Source: Candidatus Woesearchaeota archaeon
GTDB lineage: Archaea; Nanobdellota; Nanobdellia; Woesearchaeales; GW2011-AR4
Assembly (NCBI GenBank): GCA_018303625.1
Contig: JAGVXV010000011.1
Span: 1 to 63,278 of the forward strand
DNA: 63,278 nt
Reading direction: 5' to 3'
The position numbers and the translations under genes were made by a program. The notes beneath the pieces are model-generated. The model saw only the letters and a program-made list of their open reading frames with translations, ran no database searches and was not told the origin of the DNA. Below are positions 6,333 to 60,952 of this stretch, in pieces (within the stretch, counting starts at the first letter, position 1; every line of letters starts with the position of its first letter).

Positions 6333-6948
6333 ATTTTAGGTTAAAATGCTTAACAATAAATATTTATCTGTAGAAAAAGGTGAAAGATTACTTGATTTAG
6401 GCAGTTTATTCTTATTGTAGCTTAGGTAGTTTATATTGCAAAAAAGCTAAAACACCAAAATTTTGATGTTTCAGGGCTTGCAAAGTAAAAAAATATATAC
6501 AATTATATAGTGCCTAATGAAGTTTTTTATGATTTTTACTCCAGTTAAAGCTCTTATCTAGCATTATGAATATATGAACTCTCACTTTTTAAATTCTATA
6601 TTATTATTTTCAATATTGAAATATTATAAGGTTCAGGTGATATAGTTAAAAATATAGGTTAGAATAATATTGATTTATTAAATATGTCTAAAAAGATATT
6701 AACTAATAATTATTTTATAAAAATATATTATTAATATAATTAAATAAAAACATATTTTTAAGATATAATATTATATAGGTTTACTGTATTAAAGAATTTT
6801 GGATTAATCTAGATAATATATATTATATAAGTATTTTTATATATTTTATAAGTATAAAATGCCACTAAATATTATAAATAATATGTAAGTAAAACTAAAA
6901 AAATTAAAATCCGAAAAATTTTTATTTAAATCAAAAAAGTTTATTGAA

Positions 6949-8299: not shown

Positions 8300-9037
8300 C
8301 TATCCTTTATTATTCACTTTCTGAAACAATTCTTCGGGAATAATGCCTTTATGGTTGCCTTTATACAAATTGCCCCTATACCTCACTTTGCCTATATAAG
8401 TAGGATTTTTTATTATTTCATATAGCGTTGATACAGGAATATTAAATTTTTCTGATATCTCCTTGTAATGCACTCCAGAAGCCCACATTTCGAAGATTTC
8501 GCGCACTTTTATGGCCTCTTCATCATTTACCACTAGCTTGCCATTCCTGTAAAAATAGCCCATTGGAGCCCTGTTTAAAGCCTCTCCAGAGCCAATCTTC
8601 TTGTCAAAAGCCATTTCCACCCTTTCCTTTACCATGCCCCTCTCAAGCTGCGCAAAAACGCCAATTATTTGGAAGAAGGCCTCTCCCATCGCTGTTGTTG
8701 TGTCAATCTGCTCAGTAACAGAAGTAAAATTAACACCTTTTGATTTCAGCTCTTCAAGGATTGATATGAGGTCTTTCAGCTTCCTGGAGAACCGGTCAAT
8801 CTTGTAAACCAATAAGATTGTGAATTTTTTATTGTTGATATCATCAACCATGTTTTTCAATGCCGGCCTGTCCATTGTGCCAGCAGAATAGCCGGCATCT
8901 GTGTAAATCTTAAAGAGCTTCCAGCCCCTTGCCTTGCAAAAAGCCCTGCATCTCTCAATCTGCGCATCTATGCTTATGCCTTCTTTTGCCTGCTCCTCTG
9001 TCGAAACTCGAACATAAACACCTACTTTTTCTGTCAT
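8300..9037 (-). CDS. Serine recombinase (resolvase catalytic domain plus short recombinase DNA-binding domain)
   Basis: GVYVRVSTEEQ (catalytic Ser), DAGYSAG..RPAL, KIDRFSR, GVFAQLER, APMGY. At 245 aa it lacks the zinc-ribbon/coiled-coil of large phage integrases. Confidence 0.95.
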   Translation of the reverse strand: MTEKVGVYVRVSTEEQAKEGISIDAQIERCRAFCKARGWKLFKIYTDAGYSAGTMDRPALKNMVDDINNKKFTILLVYKIDRFSRKLKDLISILEELKSKGVNFTSVTEQIDTTTAMGEAFFQIIGVFAQLERGMVKERVEMAFDKKIGSGEALNRAPMGYFYRNGKLVVNDEEAIKVREIFEMWASGVHYKEISEKFNIPVSTLYEIIKNPTYIGKVRYRGNLYKGNHKGIIPEELFQKVNNKG

Positions 9038-9249
9038 AAGCCTTAAAACCTCAAAATTTCAAGCTTTCAACCATTCCAGTATGGGTTCCCTTACCGGAAT
9101 CCATAGTTAACCTTATTGGAATAAGTATAAATATTTTTGCATTAGGTCTTAAGTGCAAGAAGCTTTAGGACAGATTAACCTAAAATATTTAAGCTATAAT
9201 CAAAAGTTTTAAGAAATAAAAGATTTAAGAAAAAATTAAAAGATTTAAG

Positions 9250-9819
9250 TTAAAAGTTTACCAATTCTTTCTGTGCAGGATCTATCATCAGCAAATTTTC
9301 CTTTGCCTGCAATGTTTTGAATTCTTGATCAAGCTTTAAGAAAGGCCTGCTGTTGATGTATTTTTTCAGAATTGGAATGCCTTTCCCTATCATGGAGGTG
9401 ATGTAATTGCTTATAATATCATCAGAAAGGGCTGTTTTTCTTGATATGTCGGCATAGCTTACCATGCCTTTTTCATCCTCCAAAGCGTATAGGACCATAA
9501 AGACCTGCTGCTCTGTTTTTGTTAGTGGCTTTATCTCAAAGGCTTTTTGGTCTTCTGCAATAAAACTGCTGTTTGACTGCAAAAAAAGCTGTATTTTGTC
9601 CATCCTTTCTGCCAATTTGTCTATTTTTGCCTCAATTTCACATAAACATTCATAATTGGACTGTATCTCGTTGGTATTCTCATTTATTGCCTGCAAATGC
9701 TCCTCAAATTCTTTTTTTATTTTTAAAAATGCTCCTTTAAGCTCTTTGTCCACATTTCTCTGCCTCTTGAAGAAAGAGCGCTTCCTCTGCTTGAAAAATT
9801 CATTCAAAATTACAATCAC
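9250..9819 (-). CDS. Coiled-coil plus C-terminal winged-helix protein
   Basis: Heptad region (FEEHLQAINENTNEIQSNYECLCEIEAKIDKLAERMDKI), then LTKTEQQVFMVL..SYADISRKTALSDDIISNYITSMIGKGIPI. Start may be TTG at 9807 after the GGGGTG RBS. Confidence 0.75.
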   Translation of the reverse strand: MIVILNEFFKQRKRSFFKRQRNVDKELKGAFLKIKKEFEEHLQAINENTNEIQSNYECLCEIEAKIDKLAERMDKIQLFLQSNSSFIAEDQKAFEIKPLTKTEQQVFMVLYALEDEKGMVSYADISRKTALSDDIISNYITSMIGKGIPILKKYINSRPFLKLDQEFKTLQAKENLLMIDPAQKELVNF

Positions 9820-9880
9820 CCCCGAAAATTGGCGGTAAAATGTTGCTTAAATACTTTTATATTTTGAGAAATATAGCATG

Positions 9881-10504
9881 CTATAACTGCTTTACAGCCT
9901 TATAAAGATAGAAATTTTCCTTCCCCCTTCTTGCTACTTCAATCTCCTCCAATAACTCCATTTCTTCCAAAATCCGGTAGAAGGAGCTTTTTGAGCACAG
10001 GCCCTGCTCAATAACAACCATATCCTTTAATTGCAAGGCGCCTATCTGGCCATATTTCCTTATATAGGAAACAAGCAGGCTTTTGATGTATTCCTTTGAA
10101 TTTTTAGTCAATCTTTTCACTATTTTCTCCCTTACAGCTGCTTTTTTCTGCTGTTCAAGCCTTTCAAGCCTTTGCTCAATTTCCCCAACTTCAAACAGCT
10201 TTTCCCGAGGCTTTCTTTCCCTTAAAGAGTCAATTTTTTCATCCAATGCCCTTATTTTGCTTAGAAGATGCTCATAGGAGTAATAGCTGTCTACAATGCG
10301 CTTTATGTCCTCTGGCTTTTTTGGCGCATAAGACAGCTCCAATTCGAGTTTTTTTATCAAATTTTCCTGCTCCAGGCTTTTTTGGTATAAAAAGTTCATC
10401 CATTGGAAAAGGTTTACAGTGTCTTTTTTCACATTTGCAAAGGATTTCGCCAATAAGCCGTGCAGCTGCGAAAATTTATCATTGCTTTTTTTTAGCCAGA
10501 ACAT
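9881..10504 (-). CDS. Coiled-coil plus C-terminal winged-helix protein
   Basis: Central heptads; C-terminal YIRKYGQIGALQLKDMVVIEQGLCSKSSFYRILEEM..IEVARRGKENFYLY. Confidence 0.75.
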   Translation of the reverse strand: MFWLKKSNDKFSQLHGLLAKSFANVKKDTVNLFQWMNFLYQKSLEQENLIKKLELELSYAPKKPEDIKRIVDSYYSYEHLLSKIRALDEKIDSLRERKPREKLFEVGEIEQRLERLEQQKKAAVREKIVKRLTKNSKEYIKSLLVSYIRKYGQIGALQLKDMVVIEQGLCSKSSFYRILEEMELLEEIEVARRGKENFYLYKAVKQL

Positions 10505-10543
10505 AGCAATAAAGTTTACTCTAAATTATTTAAATATTTCGTT

Positions 10544-10719
10544 TTTTGGGACTATTTTGGGACTATTTTGGGACTATTTTGGGAACATTTAAATAGTAAA
10601 ATTAAAATATAAGGGAATGAAATGGGAATGATTTGGGAATGAAATGAGACTATCTGGGAATGAGAGGATATTGTGGGAAAAATTTTGGGATTGCTTTGGG
10701 AATGAAATGAAAATGAAAT
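10544..10719. repeat. Helically phased ~11-bp direct-repeat array (GGGA core), iteron/centromere-like
   Basis: ttttgggacta x3 plus ttttgggaaca (10544-10587), an AT spacer, then gggaatgaaat-type units. GGGA starts at 10548, 10559, 10570, 10581, 10613, 10624, 10635, 10656, 10675, 10687 and 10698. Confidence 0.9.
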
Positions 10720-10957
10720 TTTTGGATTTGAAAAAAATAAAAAACTGGAAAAAACCAATGGAGAAATTGCCCACGAATTTTGATGGAAAAGTATTAATAA
10801 GGCAGGAGATTCCGCCAGATAAAGCATATATGAGGCTCAAAAGGGATCTTTTGATGTTAGCTAGTGAGCATATTTATCAGAAAGTGAGTGTTGTCTATAA
10901 GATGTTAAATATTATGTAGGTATTAATATATATTAAATAAGTAAAACATTACAAAAA

Positions 10958-11602
10958 GTGAGTGTTCAAATGCGACAAATAAGCTCAAAATCGGGGCTTG
11001 CAATAGCATTGTCAAGGCTTGAAGGCTTCGAAAGGCCTAAAGTGATAGCTGAGCAATATGCCATGGACAGCGAAATAGGGGCTTTTGTGCTGTGGAACGC
11101 TGCCCTGAAGGGAGATATGGGAAAAGTGAGTGTTGACTTAGGCTGCGGGACCGGCATTTTGGGCATTGGTGCCCTACTCATGGGCTCCAAAAAGGTATAT
11201 TTTGTAGATAATGATAAAGAAGCCTTGAAAATAGCGAAAAATAACCTTGAAAAAGCAAAAAGTGAGTTTTCAATAGCTGGCAAGGCTGTTTTCCTTTGCC
11301 TGGATATAGCAGATTTTAATGAAAAGGCAGATACTGTTATACAAAACCCGCCTTTCGGGGTAAAAGTGAGGCATGCGGACAGAATTTTCCTGGAAAAGGC
11401 AATGGAAACGGGCAATGTTGCCTATAGTTTCCACAAATCCGAAGGCAAAAAGTTTATTTTTAAGTTTGTCGACGAGAAAAACTTTACAGTCACTAATGTA
11501 TGGGATTTTAAGTTTCCGCTGAAAGCTTCATACGAATTCCATTCCCGTCGGATAAAGAGGGTTGATGTCAGCTGCTTCAGGATCCAAAGGAAAGATTTTT
11601 AA
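10958..11602 (+). CDS. METTL5-family N6-adenine RNA methyltransferase
   Basis: EQY, VDLGCGTGILGIGA (SAM binding), IQNPPFG catalytic motif. Probable start is ATG at 10970. Confidence 0.9.
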   Translation: MSVQMRQISSKSGLAIALSRLEGFERPKVIAEQYAMDSEIGAFVLWNAALKGDMGKVSVDLGCGTGILGIGALLMGSKKVYFVDNDKEALKIAKNNLEKAKSEFSIAGKAVFLCLDIADFNEKADTVIQNPPFGVKVRHADRIFLEKAMETGNVAYSFHKSEGKKFIFKFVDEKNFTVTNVWDFKFPLKASYEFHSRRIKRVDVSCFRIQRKDF

Positions 11603-11903: not shown

Positions 11904-11997
11904 CTGTTTTCTTAAAGCCTGAAAAGGCAAAATTTCTGGGTTTCAAGCCTTATCTAAAAGAAAAATATTTATATATCTATAGTGCCTAAAATCAAAT

Positions 11998-12510
11998 ATG
12001 GCGTTCCTGAGAGTTAAAAAAATCAATAATGCGAAGTACCTTTACCTTGTCGGGAATAAATGGTATAAAAGAAAGGCAAAAGGCAAAGGGAAAGGCCCAA
12101 GGCAGAAAGTTATAAAGTATCTGGGCAAGGTTTATTCTTTTGAGAAAGCAAACAATAGTGATTTTCATTATTTTAAAAATATTAACAATATCGAAGAGTA
12201 TATAAAAAACAATGAAAAAAGCAGCATTATCAGGGATTTGGTTGAATGGGAGCTTTTCAGGCACCATATCAATAAAGATGAATTCGGCATAGACTTTGAC
12301 AATAAAAAAATACTAAAAGGCAAAAAAGATGTTAGCTTGGCTATGAATGAAGGCTTTCTTTGCAGCTACACTTTGGCAAGGCTTTTTAATTTTAAGTTTG
12401 GCATTGAGATGGAAAATGAGGGCATGGAATTTGCAAAGGCTTTTGTTGAAGCAGGCATTGAAGTCCCTAAAGAGGTTTTTGTCGGAATTTTTGGGAAGGT
12501 ATATAAATGA
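11998..12510 (+). CDS. Hypothetical protein with a basic N-terminal beta-domain
   Basis: MAFLRVKKINNAKYLYLV..GPRQKVIKYLGK resembles the N-terminus of IS1634-type transposases, but there is no DDE domain. Overlaps uppS. Confidence 0.7.
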   Translation: MAFLRVKKINNAKYLYLVGNKWYKRKAKGKGKGPRQKVIKYLGKVYSFEKANNSDFHYFKNINNIEEYIKNNEKSSIIRDLVEWELFRHHINKDEFGIDFDNKKILKGKKDVSLAMNEGFLCSYTLARLFNFKFGIEMENEGMEFAKAFVEAGIEVPKEVFVGIFGKVYK

Positions 12511-13328: not shown

Positions 13329-14753
13329 TTGATGGATTCTTATGAATTGTTTAAGGAAGATGTTAAGAGCATTGCTGAAGCTTTCAGCAGAATTGACAGG
13401 AATGAGACGATAAGGCTGATAAGCCATCTTGACGCGGACGGGATAAGCGCAGCTTCTTTGATGATAAAATGCCTCAATAATGACAACAGGAAATATTCAA
13501 TAACCATAGTGCAGCAGCTTAACAAGGAAGTCTTAACGGAAGTTGCCAAAGAGCCGTACAAAACCGTGGTTTTTACGGATATAGGAGCCGGCGTTGCCAA
13601 TTCAATAAAAGAAATCCTAAAAGGCAAAACTGTTTTTATCCTGGACCATCACGAGCCTGAGGCTGTTGACATGAAAGAAGAGAGCATCTTAATGGCGAAC
13701 CCCCACAAGTTTGGCATTGATGGCGGCCTGGAGATCTCCGGAGCGGGCGTTGTTTATCTATTTGCAAGCTGCCTTGATGAGAAGATAAAGGAATTTGCGC
13801 ATATAGCAATAATAGGGGCAATAGGGGATTTGCAGGAAAACAATGGATTTTCAAAACTGAATAACGAAATTCTGAATGAGGCAATAAGCGGGGGCAAAAT
13901 AAAGATAATCAGGGGATTAAGGCTTTTCGGAGCGCAGACAAAGCCGCTGTACCGCGTTCTGGAGTACTGCACTGATCCTTACATTCCCGGCGTAACAGGC
14001 TCTGAATCCGGATCGATACAATTTCTTTACAGCATCGGCATTAACCCAAAAAACGGCAGCAGCTGGAAAAAGATAGGGCACCTGGACAATGAAGAAATGA
14101 AAAAGCTTGTTACGGGAGTTATAATGAAAAGGCTGAATGAGGACAAGCCTGATGATGTTTTGGGAAATGTTTATCTGCTAAGAGGGGAGGAACACGAAAG
14201 CCCGACAAAGGATGCAAGAGAGTTTGCAACTTTGCTGAATGCGTGCGGCAGGCTTGGGAAAGCCTCTTTGGGCATCGGCGCCTGCCTGGGCGACAAAAAA
14301 ATAAAAGAGAAGGCAATACATAGCATGGACAGCTATAAAAAGGAGATTGTCAATGCAATAAAGTGGTTTGAGGGCAACAAGGAAAATGAATTTGTCATTA
14401 AGGGAGATGGCTTTGTAATAATAAATGCGCAGCATATGGTAATGCATACAATAATAGGGACTTTAGCCTCTATTTTGTCCAAATCAAACAGCTTTAAAGA
14501 GAATACTTTTATAATGTCCATGGCAAGGCTTGTGGACGGGAATACGAAGGTATCATTAAGGATTTCAGGCAGAAAAAAGGATTTTGATTTAAAGCAGGTA
14601 ATTGACAGTATTGTTTACGGCATTGAAAATTGCGAAGCCGGGGGTCATGCAAATGCCGCAGGAGCCCAGATTCCAAGCGAAAAGGAAGAAGAAGTCATAG
14701 AAAAGGCGAAAGAAGTTCTTGGGAAATTTGCAATGGAAGAGAAAGTTTTGTAA
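13329..14753 (+). CDS. recJ: Archaeal RecJ-like DHH/DHHA1 phosphoesterase (ssDNA exonuclease family)
   Basis: SHLDADG, FTDIG, LDHHEP, GAIGDLQ, LLNACGR, AGGHANAAGA. Confidence 0.85.
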   Translation: MMDSYELFKEDVKSIAEAFSRIDRNETIRLISHLDADGISAASLMIKCLNNDNRKYSITIVQQLNKEVLTEVAKEPYKTVVFTDIGAGVANSIKEILKGKTVFILDHHEPEAVDMKEESILMANPHKFGIDGGLEISGAGVVYLFASCLDEKIKEFAHIAIIGAIGDLQENNGFSKLNNEILNEAISGGKIKIIRGLRLFGAQTKPLYRVLEYCTDPYIPGVTGSESGSIQFLYSIGINPKNGSSWKKIGHLDNEEMKKLVTGVIMKRLNEDKPDDVLGNVYLLRGEEHESPTKDAREFATLLNACGRLGKASLGIGACLGDKKIKEKAIHSMDSYKKEIVNAIKWFEGNKENEFVIKGDGFVIINAQHMVMHTIIGTLASILSKSNSFKENTFIMSMARLVDGNTKVSLRISGRKKDFDLKQVIDSIVYGIENCEAGGHANAAGAQIPSEKEEEVIEKAKEVLGKFAMEEKVL

Positions 14754-59478: not shown

Positions 59479-59570
59479 TTACATTTAACTGCGCTTCTTT
59501 AAACCCAAATATTTAAATAGTAGTATTATAATAGTATTGCAAAATATATACTAGAATACTAAAAAAATAT

Positions 59571-59636
59571 TGTAAAAGTAATGTAATAGTAATGTAAAAG
59601 TAATGTAAAGATATTGCTAAAGTATTGTTATAGTAT
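59571..59636. repeat. Six tandem 11-bp units upstream of an RHH gene (operator-like)
   Basis: tgtaaaagtaa, tgtaatagtaa, tgtaaaagtaa, tgtaaagatat, tgctaaagtat, tgttatagtat. Confidence 0.75.
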
Positions 59637-59648
59637 TATTTATACTGA

Positions 59649-59792
59649 ATGAAAGCCAAAAACAGCGAAAAAAGAGTAATGGTTCATGTTTACCTTACTC
59701 ATGAAGAAAAAGCAAGGATAGAGCAGCTTGCAAAAAACCTTGGCATCTCAGTTTCTGCGTACATTAAAGTCAAACTTTTCAGTGAAAAATGA
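59649..59792 (+). CDS. Ribbon-helix-helix (CopG-like) protein, copy 1
   Basis: Not in the track. MKAKNSEKRVMVHVYLTHEEKARIEQLAKNLGISVSAYIKVKLFSEK. Confidence 0.8.
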   Translation: MKAKNSEKRVMVHVYLTHEEKARIEQLAKNLGISVSAYIKVKLFSEK

Positions 59793-59834
59793 CCCCTAAA
59801 ATTCAAAACAAACAGAGAATATTGATGGCCCATG
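59784..59834. repeat. Direct repeat of 60798-60848 (5' fragment of the RHH gene)
   Basis: 45/51 identical; encodes MTPKIQNKQRILMAH vs MTAKMQNKQRRLMVH. Confidence 0.9.
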
Positions 59835-59847
59835 ATTTTATTAGATG

Positions 59848-60267
59848 TCAAAGTTCTTCATTCAATAATTTATCAATTAATTCTTTTGTTGAGTATACTT
59901 TAACTAATGACTGCTTCTTTAAATGCGGGTCATTGGACCAGATTGCAGCTTTGATTGACAATGCAAGAGCGAGATACGGAGAGTCTTTTGGATCTTCGGG
60001 CAAGGAATCTATCGCTCCCGCAAGAAAGGAGCTGTACTCAGAGGATTTAAAGAACTTAATCAATGCCTTGGCTTCCAAGAGCCTTAGCCCAAATTCATGC
60101 TCAGACAGCTTCGATTTAGACAGGCAATCCGCTTTGTGCTTGTTAAGTTCGGACAATGCAAACTCCGTTGTGAAGAAATCCGCCTTAAGCGATGAAAATA
60201 GGTACGACGCAACCGACTTAGGATTCATAATTGAGAATAGTATATTGTTGTCTAGAACTAATATCAT
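59848..60267 (-). CDS. PIN-domain (VapC-like) toxin
   Basis: LVLDNNIL, TEFALSE, DPKDSPYLALAL..IWSNDPHL acidic PIN residues. Confidence 0.9.
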   Translation of the reverse strand: MILVLDNNILFSIMNPKSVASYLFSSLKADFFTTEFALSELNKHKADCLSKSKLSEHEFGLRLLEAKALIKFFKSSEYSSFLAGAIDSLPEDPKDSPYLALALSIKAAIWSNDPHLKKQSLVKVYSTKELIDKLLNEEL

Positions 60268-60270
60268 TTT

Positions 60271-60567
60271 TTATTTTGAATGCTCCCTTCTTTTTTCCGG
60301 AGAAAGGTGGAATAGCAGCTTAGCCCTCATCTCAGGAGAAAGTTCTTTAAGCAGCCTTTTGAAAGATCCTTTCTTCGCTTTCCTGCCTAATTCAACAGAC
60401 CACTTCATCAGTTCCTGCTCTTCCTTAGAATCAAGTCTTTTGCGCACTTCTTCCAATTCAGTTTTCTTCAGCAGGTTTTCTCTGGCAACCTCCGACCAAT
60501 TAACCCAGGAGAATTTGCCAATCCTGGCTTTTAGCTCTTCGTCTACCGCGAATGTTACGCTTGCCAT
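60271..60567 (-). CDS. RHH-type antitoxin (VapB-like)
   Basis: MASVTFAVDEELKARIGKFSWVNWSEVAR; directly upstream of the PIN gene. Confidence 0.8.
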   Translation of the reverse strand: MASVTFAVDEELKARIGKFSWVNWSEVARENLLKKTELEEVRKRLDSKEEQELMKWSVELGRKAKKGSFKRLLKELSPEMRAKLLFHLSPEKRREHSK

Positions 60568-60726
60568 TTATACCAGCCCCCTGCTTTTTAACTCTTCAAA
60601 TTTTTCAAGCTCTTCAACTTTTTTAATTATCCCCCTTCTGACTACTTCAGCCCAGTTTATCTCTGGATGCGATTTCCTTAACCTTGCTAATAATTCATTC
60701 GGTACAGATACAGTCATTTTTGGCAT
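60568..60726 (-). CDS. Second RHH-type antitoxin-like protein
   Basis: Not in the track. MPKMTVSVPNELLARLRKSHPEINWAEVVRRGIIKKVEELEKFEELKSRGLV; its stop abuts the next start. Confidence 0.8.
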   Translation of the reverse strand: MPKMTVSVPNELLARLRKSHPEINWAEVVRRGIIKKVEELEKFEELKSRGLV

Positions 60727-60737
60727 TTTCGTACTCC

Positions 60738-60768
60738 AAAGTATTTACTTTAATACAAGTAAATACGT
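60738..60768. promoter_or_regulatory. Palindromic operator candidate upstream of the PIN TA operon
   Basis: gtatttact...agtaaatac inverted repeat next to a TATA-like element. Confidence 0.5.
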
Positions 60769-60802
60769 TATTATATTTAAACCTTTTGATTTTAATTGAA
60801 AA

Positions 60803-60952
60803 ATGACAGCTAAAATGCAAAACAAACAGAGAAGATTGATGGTTCATGTTTACCTGACGGAGGAGGAAAAAGCCAGGATAGAGCAGCTGGCGAAAAACCT
60901 TGGAATTTCCTTGTCAGCCTACATTAAAGTCAAATTGTTCAGCGAAAAATGA
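60803..60952 (+). CDS. Ribbon-helix-helix (CopG-like) protein, copy 2
   Basis: Not in the track. MTAKMQNKQRRLMVHVYLTEEEKARIEQLAKNLGISLSAYIKVKLFSEK; paralogue of 59649..59792. Confidence 0.8.
   Translation: MTAKMQNKQRRLMVHVYLTEEEKARIEQLAKNLGISLSAYIKVKLFSEK

What the first reader, a model, noticed from the sequence alone, without database searches (positions are those of the whole stretch)
8300..10719. Serine recombinase plus two coiled-coil/winged-helix proteins plus a phased GGGA repeat array: candidate undescribed origin/segregation module
Seen: at least 11 GGGA-core units at about 11-bp spacing, in two blocks separated by an AT spacer of about 3 turns, directly upstream of the promoter of two co-oriented genes. 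Both genes have long coiled coils and C-terminal wHTH domains, and a resolvase-type serine recombinase follows. No ParA ATPase, Orc1/Cdc6, Rep or phage gene is nearby. Established: iterons and centromere-like arrays are helically phased repeats bound cooperatively by adjacent wHTH/RHH proteins, and resolvases resolve replicon dimers. Inference: a heteromeric DNA-binding complex acting on the array in replication, partition or dimer resolution.
Basis: partly seen in the sequence, partly recalled or inferred. Interest (0 to 1): 0.75.

Follow-up and report, generated by a model that had tools for sequence, protein, structure and literature searches.

The report
Conserved archaeal phased-repeat DNA-binding module
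Eleven short repeats spaced one DNA turn apart sit in front of two DNA-binding protein genes, and about 80 related archaeal species keep this layout, usually beside the gene and site that separate joined chromosomes, so it is a real, undescribed chromosomal element.

Summary
Window 10544-10705 holds 10 TGGGA, 1 AGGGA and 1 degenerate unit, all on one strand and mostly 11 bp apart. They form two blocks split by a 27-bp AT gap and abut the BRE/TATA of ORF3 (9881-10504, minus strand).

ORF3 and ORF2 (9250-9819) are long-helix plus winged-helix proteins with no known family. The pair occurs in 80 of 80 Woesearchaeota/Nanoarchaeia genome loci. Arrays of the same motif lie upstream of ORF3 in 79 of 81 loci (80 genomes plus the window).

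ORF3's recognition helix (EQGLCSKSSFYR) is almost invariant. One remote relative has a different helix and a different 11-bp array, so ORF3 most likely binds the units.

The serine recombinase is not a fixed partner. The slot after ORF2 usually holds XerA with a bona fide dif site (19 of 57 loci), another tyrosine recombinase (9) or the serine recombinase (5), never a tyrosine and a serine recombinase together.

A second motif, AAAGTGAGNGTT, brackets the locus in mirrored polarity.

Best reading: a self-regulating protein filament on phased repeats, tied to the chromosome's dimer-resolution region rather than to an origin or a partition system. No binding has been tested.

The parts
10544..10587 (-). 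Block A of the phased array: 4 units of 11 bp (TTTTGGGACTA on +; TAGTCCCAAAA on the gene strand), ending 5 bp upstream of the ORF3 BRE
   Evidence: same 4-unit block at -80/-69/-58/-47 from the ATG in many species
10585..10611 (.). AT-rich gap between blocks; holds TTTAAATA (10588-10595, + strand). Relatives carry GACGAAAAGTTTAAATA or the palindrome TTTATCGACGATAAA here: a candidate divergent BRE/TATA promoter or a further binding site
10612..10705 (-). Block B/C of the array: about 8 units (GGGAATGAAAT type), starts at 10612, 10623, 10634, 10645 (degenerate), 10655, 10674, 10686, 10697
10527..10541 (-). ORF3 core promoter, CGAAAT-ATTTAAATA (BRE + TATA), 23-37 bp before the ATG, implying a leaderless mRNA
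   Evidence: same element in relatives; most window genes have a TATA at about -30
9881..10504 (-). ORF3, 207 aa: N-terminal long helices plus C-terminal winged helix with the invariant recognition segment EQGLCSKSSFYR; no Pfam family
9250..9819 (-). ORF2, 189 aa: 80-residue N-terminal helix plus winged helix (weak HTH_11/MarR-like) plus a conserved C-terminal tail; has its own TATA-like element upstream
8300..9037 (-). Short serine recombinase, 245 aa (Resolvase + Recombinase domains, catalytic Ser in YVRVST); variable occupant of the recombinase slot
9073..9100 (.). 28-bp imperfect palindrome ATTCCAGTATGGG-TT-CCCTTACCGGAAT between the recombinase TATA and its ATG; conserved with the gene; single copy in the window; candidate crossover site
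10881..11270 (+). Four AAAGTGAG(T)GTT boxes (10881, 10955, 11123 perfect; 11259 with one mismatch), all pointing away from the array, running into the 5' part of the methyltransferase gene
6577..6588 (-). Mirror-oriented AAAGTGAGAGTT box on the other side of the gene pair, in the 615-bp intergenic region 6333-6948

Best explanation
The array is the binding platform of the adjacent gene pair.

Proposed mechanism:
1. ORF3 recognises one TCCCA unit per winged helix. This step is inferred.
2. Units lie 11 bp apart, so successive proteins sit on one face of the DNA. Their long N-terminal helices pair or bundle, probably with ORF2, into a continuous filament of 9-24 units (inferred).
3. The filament covers the region just upstream of ORF3's own BRE/TATA and the gap element. 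The minimal function is therefore cooperative self-regulation of the ORF3-ORF2 genes, and probably of a divergent promoter.
4. The module is a fixed chromosomal landmark of Woesearchaeales. It lies next to the dimer-resolution cassette (xerA plus dif) in most close relatives. In this genome a short serine recombinase with its own 28-bp palindrome fills that slot.
5. The larger role is therefore most likely to organise or control the dif region, for example as a roadblock or boundary, or by controlling recombination. It is not likely to start replication or to act as a motor-driven centromere.

Shown: the anatomy, its conservation, the gene order, the dif sites, the protein folds, and one case where motif and helix change together. 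Inferred: who binds what, filament formation, and the biological role.
For: - Enrichment and phasing: 10 TGGGA in 155 bp against about 0.12 expected. Across the 81 loci (80 genomes plus the window), the most common spacing between neighbouring units is 11 bp (291 cases), followed by 10, 22, 6, 12 and 33 bp. Unit density is 28 times the background. 108 of 109 phased runs lie within 900 bp upstream of ORF3.
- Conservation: the pair is present in 80 of 80 genome loci. 79 of 81 loci have at least 6 pentamers upstream. Block positions relative to the ATG and TATA are fixed across species.
- Protein side: the ORF3 winged-helix recognition segment is at least 95% invariant in 81 species whose overall identity falls to about 30%. 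All 146 of the 150 family representatives whose listed sequence reaches that segment keep SKS-x-FYR or SRS-x-FYR; the other 4 are fragments.
- Change of motif with helix: in L211 a remote ORF3-like protein (hhalign 92.8%, N-terminal domain only) has a different winged helix. It is preceded by 11 units of a different 11-mer (GCGTTAGCAAA) directly upstream of its TATA.
- Folds: long helices plus winged helix, pLDDT 81-82.
- dif link: XerA orthologues score 250-256 bits on NF040815 against a cut-off of 220. They lie 84-700 bp after ORF2. A 28-bp dif sits just upstream of xerA. It is 16-20 of 28 identical to the dif sequence deleted in the T. kodakarensis study, and in L025, L029 and L031 it also shares the TGTACC spacer (PMC11840125).
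- Precedent: that paper shows the region around T. kodakarensis dif forms a boundary that depends on TrmBL2, which it describes as forming stiff nucleoprotein filaments.
Against: - No binding data exist, and the change of motif with helix rests on one remote lineage.
- In L079 the array lies downstream of an inverted ORF3. In L059 no array is seen. Promoter control is therefore not the whole story.
- 24 of 57 loci, all from distant clades, have no recombinase after ORF2. The dif link could be inherited gene order only.
- The window itself has no XerA or convincing dif.
- ORF2's putative recognition helix is poorly conserved, so its role is unclear.
- Another factor could bind the units.
Confidence: 0.5

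Rival explanations
1. Ordinary local regulators. ORF3 and ORF2 are lineage-specific transcription factors with an oversized operator. The neighbourhood with xerA/dif and other recombinases is inherited gene order or an insertion hotspot with no functional link.
For: The array abuts the BRE/TATA at a fixed distance. The other flank (methyltransferase, Rpo11-like, UPP synthase, GAN) is equally syntenic without an obvious functional link. 24 of 57 loci have no recombinase. The region after ORF2 varies in content.
Against: 9-24 units over 150-350 bp is far more than an operator needs. A second motif brackets the locus in mirrored polarity: 141:2 on the left and 47:11 on the right. Three unrelated recombinase types occupy the same slot, and tyrosine and serine types never occur together (P = 0.028). 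In L079 the array persists away from the ORF3 promoter.
Confidence: 0.22
2. Replication origin with dedicated initiators. The phased repeats act as iterons, the AT gap as an unwinding element, and ORF3/ORF2 as origin-binding proteins.
For: Iteron-like direct repeats with an AT-rich gap. Several repeat classes sit in a long intergenic region. Genes diverge from the array. A GAN/Cdc45-like gene is 3 kb away. In Thermococcales, ORB clusters flank the initiator gene and extend into coding DNA (PMC1904270), a similar layout.
Against: A bona fide dif lies 1.4-3 kb away in relatives; in the archaea studied, dif was predicted in termination regions (PMC2958812). Orc1/Cdc6 is present in 206 of 208 complete Nanobdellota genomes. 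No Orc1 was found in the scanned window genes or in two 20-kb relatives. The units lack the TTCC...GAA ORB core. No ATPase or helicase loader is in the module. GC skew in the window follows gene strand only.
Confidence: 0.07
3. Centromere-like partition site. The array is a parC-type centromere and ORF3/ORF2 are adaptor proteins.
For: Foldseek lists the pNOB8 centromere-binding protein AspA among winged-helix matches.
Against: No ParA, ParM, TubZ or SegA-type NTPase appears next to the pair in any of 80 loci or within 10 kb in the annotated relatives. The Foldseek matches are generic winged helices with E of 1e-3 or worse. No homologues were found in plasmid or phage records or in viral contigs.
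Confidence: 0.05
4. Replication fork trap or terminus organiser. The asymmetric AAAGTGAGNGTT boxes in mirrored orientation on both sides of dif are polar protein-binding sites (as for Ter/RTP-Tus, or matS/MatP), bound by ORF2 or ORF3, with the phased array as the autoregulatory site.
For: Box polarity is 141 reverse to 2 forward on the left and 47 forward to 11 reverse on the right. dif always lies between the two sets. The boxes are local: 5 hits in the 63-kb window against 0.3 expected, all within 4.5 kb of the pair. The boxes are retained in L211 together with the ORF2-like winged helix. B. subtilis RTP is a winged-helix dimer encoded next to its own Ter sites (own knowledge).
Against: Box orientation also matches the direction of the flanking genes (methyltransferase, o259), so a transcription-linked role is not excluded. 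To my knowledge no sequence-specific fork trap has been described in archaea. There is no functional test.
Confidence: 0.1
5. Remnant backbone of an integrated plasmid or other mobile element (DNA-binding proteins, iterons and a resolvase).
For: Recombinase genes of three kinds are adjacent. The serine recombinase cassette is more conserved than its neighbours (79-80% nucleotide identity against 67%), suggesting lateral movement of that cassette.
Against: The pair and array sit in the same syntenic chromosomal context in 80 species, with divergence like that of housekeeping neighbours. No relatives were found in viral contigs, plasmids or phages. GC content is not atypical.
Confidence: 0.03

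Closest known systems
ParR/parC of plasmid R1 (type II partition) and omega/heptad operators of pSM19035
   Same: Many short direct repeats at one-turn spacing, arranged in two blocks around a core promoter. A small protein encoded next to them binds cooperatively and autoregulates (own knowledge). In distant clades the unit orientation is mixed, as with omega heptads.
   Different: The proteins here are coiled-coil plus winged helix, not ribbon-helix-helix. There is no ParM or ParA motor. The module is chromosomal, single-locus and conserved across an archaeal order.
TrmBL2-dependent boundary around dif in Thermococcus kodakarensis (PMC11840125)
   Same: A large intergenic region next to dif is needed for a boundary that depends on TrmBL2, described in the paper as forming stiff nucleoprotein filaments. 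The boundary does not need XerA or dif.
   Different: ORF2 and ORF3 gave no significant Pfam match of any kind, so nothing ties them to the family of TrmBL2. Here the sites are sharply defined phased repeats. No 3C or ChIP data exist.
Bacillus subtilis RTP/Ter and E. coli MatP/matS terminus systems
   Same: A small dimeric DNA-binding protein with a helical dimerisation arm. RTP is a winged helix encoded beside its own sites and autoregulated. The sites are polar or clustered near dif (own knowledge). The boxes here show mirrored polarity.
   Different: No sequence or specific fold match was found. Function is untested, and an 11-bp phased array is not a feature of Ter or matS.
Single-recombinase Xer modules with the site next to the gene (XerS/difSL; haloarchaeal xerA operon with upstream dif)
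   Same: In relatives the 28-bp dif lies 15-420 bp upstream of xerA. In the window a 28-bp palindrome lies upstream of the serine recombinase gene. Haloarchaeal dif-like sites upstream of the xerA operon are reported in PMC11840125.
   Different: The window's enzyme is a serine, not a tyrosine, recombinase. Its activity and site are only inferred.
Plasmid iterons with Rep initiators; archaeal ORB/Orc1 origins
   Same: Direct repeats next to the gene of the presumed binding protein, with an AT-rich gap.
   Different: The units are 11 bp, not 17-22 bp. There is no Rep or AAA+ initiator, no ORB dyad, and dif is adjacent in relatives.

Membership tests
Type II (ParMRC) or other plasmid-type partition system | NTPase motor gene (ParM, ParA, TubZ or SegA) in the operon | tested here: not met
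   Pfam scans of window neighbours and precomputed Pfam lists for 20-kb relatives show none. No extra conserved gene lies beside the pair in the 80 loci.
Type II (ParMRC) or other plasmid-type partition system | Centromere of phased direct repeats bound by the adjacent adaptor protein | tested here: inconclusive
   The repeat architecture is present. Binding was not tested. The adaptor fold is winged helix, not RHH.
Archaeal Orc1/ORB replication origin | ORB or mini-ORB elements with conserved TTCC...GAA dyad | tested here: not met
   The unit consensus is A-Y-A-K-TCCCA-R-N-A-T with no GAA half. The ORB definition is from PMC1904270.
Archaeal Orc1/ORB replication origin | orc1/cdc6 adjacent, or skew or marker-frequency minimum at the site | tested here: inconclusive
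   No Orc1 was found in the scanned window genes or in two relatives at +/-10 kb. Skew in 63 kb is uninformative. Whole-genome position was not obtainable.
Iteron/Rep plasmid origin | Rep-family initiator encoded next to the iterons | tested here: not met
   No Rep domain reaches significance in Pfam, NCBIfam or PHROGs; the only such hit is a weak Replitron_HUH match in ORF2 at E = 0.034, far below cut-off. No plasmid homologues.
Xer/dif chromosome dimer resolution module | XerA-type tyrosine recombinase | tested here: not met
   Not met in the window (tblastn finds no hit). Met in 25 relatives (NF040815 above cut-off).
Xer/dif chromosome dimer resolution module | 28-bp dif: 11-bp inverted arms plus 6-bp spacer, TAA-N6-TTA core | tested here: not met
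   The window has only an AT-rich chance-level candidate at 6820. About 15 relatives have clear sites, 16-20 of 28 identical to T. kodakarensis dif.
Tn3/gamma-delta type resolvase-res system | About 185-aa resolvase with C-terminal HTH; res with three subsites; transposon context | tested here: not met
   The protein is 245 aa with Resolvase plus Recombinase domains, aligned to the N-terminal half of large serine recombinases. Only one 28-bp palindrome was seen. No transposase is present.
Large serine recombinase (phage integrase/Ccr type) | Full recombinase domain plus zinc-ribbon and coiled-coil C-terminal region (450-700 aa) | tested here: not met
   The match covers profile positions 87-353 of 651 (phrog_95) and 7-239 of 542 (CcrB). 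About 245 aa is the usual length among the 120 listed relatives, most of which are 243-265 aa.
Known winged-helix regulator families (MarR, PadR, ArsR, TrmB, HTH_11) | Pfam or NCBIfam match above curated cut-off | tested here: not met
   ORF3 has no family. ORF2's best match is HTH_11 at 16 bits against a cut-off of 25. The PDB profile search finds nothing specific. Foldseek E is 1e-3 or worse.

The most novel reading that the evidence does not exclude
Woesearchaeales carry a dedicated, sequence-specific organiser of the chromosome's dif or terminus region. It consists of two lineage-specific coiled-coil winged-helix proteins, a helically phased filament-nucleating array, and asymmetric 13-mer boxes that converge on dif from both sides. 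It would act as a fork trap, an SMC roadblock or a director of dimer resolution. It would work with whichever recombinase cassette (XerA/dif, another tyrosine recombinase, or a short serine recombinase with its own site) occupies the adjacent slot.
Probability: 0.17. Interest if true: 0.85.

Novelty: new variant of a known kind. Interest (0 to 1): 0.72.

Why it matters
DPANN archaea are uncultured, and how they handle their chromosomes is largely inferred from gene lists. This work provides four things:
- a cis-element with a precise, testable grammar, conserved across an order;
- two abundant protein families with no annotation, now given a concrete DNA target to test;
- candidate dif sites for Woesearchaeota, next to xerA;
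- an apparent replacement of XerA/dif by a serine recombinase cassette in the same slot.

If the dif link is functional, this would be the first defined protein-and-site system organising an archaeal dimer-resolution or terminus region by sequence-specific phased binding. It could be tested in vitro with synthetic genes and oligonucleotides.

Tried and rejected
- Rfam, whole window at gathering threshold and 10450-11050 at E <= 1: no RNA family.
- tRNA search in the window and 46 loci: no tRNA next to the pair, so a tRNA insertion hotspot is not the reason for the recombinases.
- Sequence searches of both proteins against PDB: nothing specific. Foldseek against PDB: generic winged helices only.
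- PHROGs, NCBIfam and PADLOC: no family and no defence link.
- hhalign of ORF3 against ORF2: not detectably paralogous.
- A profile search of 1.8 billion representatives found 419 relatives. The 150 listed are mostly 200-320 aa, and every one that reaches the wHTH keeps the same recognition-helix motif, so there is no bridge to a known family.
- Viral contigs, plasmid and phage collections: no ORF3 or ORF2 relatives.
- Metagenome scan with 4 x TCCCA at 11 bp: unspecific. Only 4 of 120 hits were Woesearchaeal, all upstream of ORF3. It could not test uniqueness within genomes.
- GC skew over 63 kb: follows coding strand and is uninformative.
- The 91-aa ORF at 10644-10919: no relatives in the loci at E <= 1e-5; treated as non-coding.
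- AAAGTGAG as a Shine-Dalgarno or general promoter element: rejected. Most genes are leaderless with a TATA at -30, and the motif is local.
- My regular-expression count of divergent BRE/TATA elements in the gap was too strict (11 of 79). The gap element is therefore described, not counted.
Full report
OBSERVATION

Window 10544-10705 carries ten exact TGGGA pentamers on the + strand, at 10547, 10558, 10569, 10580, 10623, 10634, 10655, 10674, 10686 and 10697. An AGGGA sits at 10612 and a degenerate TGAGA at 10645. From the window-wide density, about 0.12 pentamers are expected in 155 bp on one strand.

TRF finds 3.7 perfect copies of TTTTGGGACTA at 10544-10584 and GGGAATGAAAT units from 10613. 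The layout is:
- block A: four units;
- a 27-bp AT gap, with 32 bp between unit starts;
- block B: about eight units with two irregular steps.

No other phased run of this motif exists in the 63 kb.

All three genes are on the minus strand: ORF3 at 9881-10504, ORF2 at 9250-9819, and the serine recombinase at 8300-9037. Read on that strand, block A ends 5 bp before CGAAAT-ATTTAAATA. This is a canonical archaeal BRE/TATA lying 23-37 bp before the ORF3 ATG. Most genes in the window show a TATA at a similar distance, so leaderless mRNAs are the norm here.

THE PROTEINS

- ORF3 has no Pfam, NCBIfam or PHROG family. ORF2 has only sub-threshold HTH hits.
- AlphaFold models built on about 100-sequence alignments reach pLDDT 81 and 82.5. 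ORF3 has helices at 8-58, 64-96 and 103-134 and a winged helix at 137-201. ORF2 has one helix at 2-83 and a winged helix at 101-163.
- Foldseek and PDB sequence searches return only generic winged helices (Hop2 WH, PadR/AspA, MarR, ArsR) at E of 1e-3 or worse.
- The two proteins are not detectably paralogous.
- Each has more than 500 relatives at 50-76% identity in Woesearchaeota/Nanoarchaeota assemblies.
- A profile search of 1.8 billion representatives finds 419 ORF3 relatives. The 150 listed are mostly 200-320 aa.

CONSERVATION

A scan of one genome per species returned 80 loci.

- Every locus has ORF2 next to ORF3; 78 have the same order and orientation.
- The other flank is syntenic: methyltransferase, Rpo11-like subunit, a 170-aa ORF, UPP synthase and a GAN/RecJ-Cdc45-like DHH protein.
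- TCCCA/TGGGA pentamers are at least 6 per 500 bp upstream of ORF3 in 79 of 81 loci (80 genomes plus the window), with a median of 11 and a range of 0-24. Background predicts about 1.
- The commonest spacing between neighbouring units is 11 bp (291 cases), followed by 10, 22, 6, 12 and 33 bp.
- 108 of 109 phased runs in 833 kb of loci lie within 900 bp upstream of ORF3.
- In many species block A sits at -80/-69/-58/-47 from the ATG and block B at -158 to -114. Further units follow after a second gap.
- The unit consensus is A-Y-A-K-TCCCA-R-N-A-T.
- More distant clades use GTCCCAG units in both orientations.
- The gap carries a conserved element. In the window's clade it is GACGAAAAGTTTAAATA on the strand pointing away from ORF3. 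In others it is the palindrome TTTATCGACGATAAA. It may be a divergent BRE/TATA whose start site would fall inside block B, or a site for another factor.
- Exceptions: L059 has no array. In L079 ORF3 is inverted while the array stays beside the methyltransferase gene. L068 only looked exceptional because its ORF3 carries an insertion.

WHO BINDS THE UNITS (INFERENCE)

Across 81 species, the only long invariant stretch of ORF3 is E166-R177, EQGLCSKSSFYR. This is the turn and third helix of the winged helix. Overall identity falls to about 30% across the same species. All 146 of the 150 representatives whose listed sequence reaches that segment keep SKS-x-FYR or SRS-x-FYR; the other 4 are fragments. 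An invariant reading head matches an invariant TCCCA core.

A remote lineage (L211) gives the complementary case.
- Its ORF3-like protein shares only the N-terminal helix domain (hhalign 92.8%) and has a different winged helix.
- Its gene is preceded, directly upstream of the TATA, by eleven 11-bp units of a different sequence, GCGTTAGCAAA.
- The ORF2-like protein of that locus keeps the ORF2 winged helix (96.6%).

This is one case only, but it is what direct recognition predicts.

One winged helix per 11-bp unit places all the proteins on one face of the DNA. The long N-terminal helices are the obvious means of lateral association and of pairing with ORF2. This is a model, not a result.

THE RECOMBINASE

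The 245-aa protein has a Resolvase catalytic domain and part of the Recombinase domain. It aligns to the N-terminal half of large serine recombinases. About 245 aa is the usual length among its 120 listed relatives, most of which are 243-265 aa; the family has 897 members at E <= 0.001, and the listed ones are 69-100% identical to it.

- Only 7 of 80 loci have it within 6 kb of the pair, in either orientation.
- Three lookups of other family members showed different neighbourhoods in two cases.
- The gene travels with 115 bp of upstream DNA as one block. That block is 79-80% identical at the nucleotide level to L001 and L007, where ORF2 DNA is 67% identical.
- The block contains a TATA and a 28-bp imperfect palindrome at 9073-9100 (ATTCCAGTATGGG-TT-CCCTTACCGGAAT). 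The palindrome is conserved in all copies inspected and present once in the window. It is a plausible crossover site.

THE SLOT AFTER ORF2

The precomputed Pfam lists for two relatives showed a tyrosine recombinase right after ORF2. It passes NCBIfam's XerA equivalog cut-off (250-256 bits against 220).

Among the 57 genome loci with at least 2.5 kb after ORF2, the slot holds:

| Occupant | Loci |
|---|---|
| XerA orthologue | 19 |
| Another tyrosine recombinase (for example L002, 289 aa with a C-terminal zinc ribbon) | 9 |
| Serine recombinase | 5 |
| None (all from distant clades) | 24 |

Tyrosine and serine types never co-occur (hypergeometric P = 0.028). The gene usually starts 84-700 bp after ORF2.

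Just upstream of xerA, in about 15 of 25 XerA loci and in no locus without a tyrosine recombinase, lies an 11-6-11 site such as TACGCGTATAA-TGTACC-TTATACGCGTA. These sites are 16-20 of 28 identical to the dif sequence deleted in the T. kodakarensis study, TTTTGATATAATGTACCTTATATGACAA. L025, L029 and L031 also share its spacer (PMC11840125).

So in the window's wider clade the pair and array sit beside the chromosome dimer-resolution cassette. In this genome, and in L001, L007 and L020, a serine recombinase cassette occupies that place. The window has no XerA and only a chance-level AT-rich dif-like string at 6820.

A SECOND MOTIF

AAAGTGAGNGTT occurs at 10881, 10955 and 11123 (perfect) and at 11259 (one mismatch) on the + strand, and at 6577 (one mismatch) on the - strand. 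That is five hits at up to one mismatch in the window, against 0.3 expected.

In the loci it occurs 201 times. Left of ORF3, 141 copies point one way and 2 the other. Beyond +1200 the ratio is 47 to 11 in the opposite sense. The boxes are irregularly spaced (60-75 bp). They run into the 5' part of the methyltransferase gene, with up to eight copies in L054. dif lies between the two sets.

The boxes are kept in L211 in the same orientation relative to the array, although the upstream gene there runs the other way. They are not a general Shine-Dalgarno or promoter element. Their mirrored polarity around dif resembles Ter or KOPS-type geometry, but a transcription-linked role is not excluded.

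WEIGHING THE READINGS

- Origin: disfavoured by the adjacent dif, by Orc1/Cdc6 in 206 of 208 complete Nanobdellota genomes, by the lack of the ORB TTCC...GAA core, and by the absence of any initiator ATPase.
- Partition: lacks a motor gene in all loci.
- Mobile-element backbone: contradicted by stable chromosomal synteny and by no relatives in viral, plasmid or phage data.
- Still open: whether the module is only an elaborately autoregulated pair of transcription factors, or a structural element of the dif region. The latter would be comparable to the TrmBL2-dependent boundary around T. kodakarensis dif, or to RTP/Ter and MatP/matS (own knowledge).

I put about 0.5 on 'ORF3(/ORF2) filament on the phased array, self-regulating, functionally tied to the dif region'. 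I put 0.22 on plain regulation and the remainder on the other readings.

NOVELTY

I found no paper that combines Woesearchaeota with winged-helix and coiled-coil terms, and the one that mentions Woesearchaeota with origins of replication is an unrelated community survey. The protein families are unnamed in Pfam and NCBIfam. The principle of phased repeats bound cooperatively by an adjacent small DNA-binding protein is known. The protein type, the chromosomal and order-wide conservation, the dif neighbourhood, the exchangeable recombinase cassettes and the mirrored boxes are new.

Noticed in passing
window 59510-59640 and 59649-60952: A second, unrelated 11-bp phased array (about 11 units, core AGTAATGT/AGTATTGT) follows a TATA and lies directly upstream of a 47-aa ribbon-helix-helix-like ORF (59649-59792). 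A near-identical ORF repeats at 60803-60952. Between them on the minus strand lie a PIN-like 139-aa ORF and two small antitoxin-like ORFs. This looks like a toxin-antitoxin cassette flanked by duplicated RHH genes.
   Followed up: partly
window 10881-11270 (+) and 6577-6588 (-); all loci: AAAGTGAGNGTT boxes occur in mirrored polarity on both sides of the ORF3-ORF2 locus (141:2 and 47:11), partly inside coding DNA. Function is unknown.
   Followed up: partly
window 11976-11986 (before the 170-aa ORF at 11998) and 6508-6518; most loci: A conserved ATAGTGCCTAA lies between the TATA and the start codon of the 170-aa ORF. It occurs again near the right-hand box cluster, with a shared upstream element (about GTTTyAGGGCTT). 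This may be a special promoter or leader class.
   Followed up: no
L211:3921-4045 (GCA_053531115.1): A remote version of the module: ORF2-like (236 aa) and ORF3-like (203 aa) genes, eleven 11-bp GCGTTAGCAAA units before the ORF3-like TATA, AACTCTCACTTT boxes upstream, and the short serine recombinase 1.3 kb downstream.
   Followed up: partly
L025:+2217, L031:+2226, L027:+1914, L014:+1664 and others (relative to the ORF3 start): Candidate Woesearchaeal dif sites (consensus nGTnCGTATAAT-N5-TTATACGnnCT) lie immediately upstream of xerA. I found no earlier report in my limited literature search.
   Followed up: yes
window 9181-9254: Direct repeats of TAAAAGATTTAAG-like units (33-nt copies, 82% identical) lie between the serine recombinase cassette and the ORF2 stop. 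A similar string occurs in L001. Possibly a cassette boundary or a terminator region.
   Followed up: no
window 13329-14753: A DHH + DHH-CID + DHHA1 protein (GAN/RecJ-Cdc45-like replisome factor) is part of the conserved flank 3 kb from the array.
   Followed up: no
L033-L053 and others, +1760 to +2700 from the ORF3 start: In the clades without a recombinase after ORF2, a conserved GTCGGGATT(T) motif occurs one to three times, sometimes as inverted copies 45-70 bp apart. It is unexplained.
   Followed up: no
protein hits (P0479, P0499): Close relatives (72-73% identity) of the short serine recombinase are recorded in bins labelled Nomurabacteria and Buchananbacteria (CPR bacteria). This reflects either mis-binning or transfer between DPANN archaea and CPR bacteria.
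   Followed up: no
L059:5760-5860: The one locus without an array has ORF2 inverted and a serine recombinase beside it. Its ORF2-ORF3 spacer holds several GC-rich hairpin-like palindromes instead of repeats.
   Followed up: no
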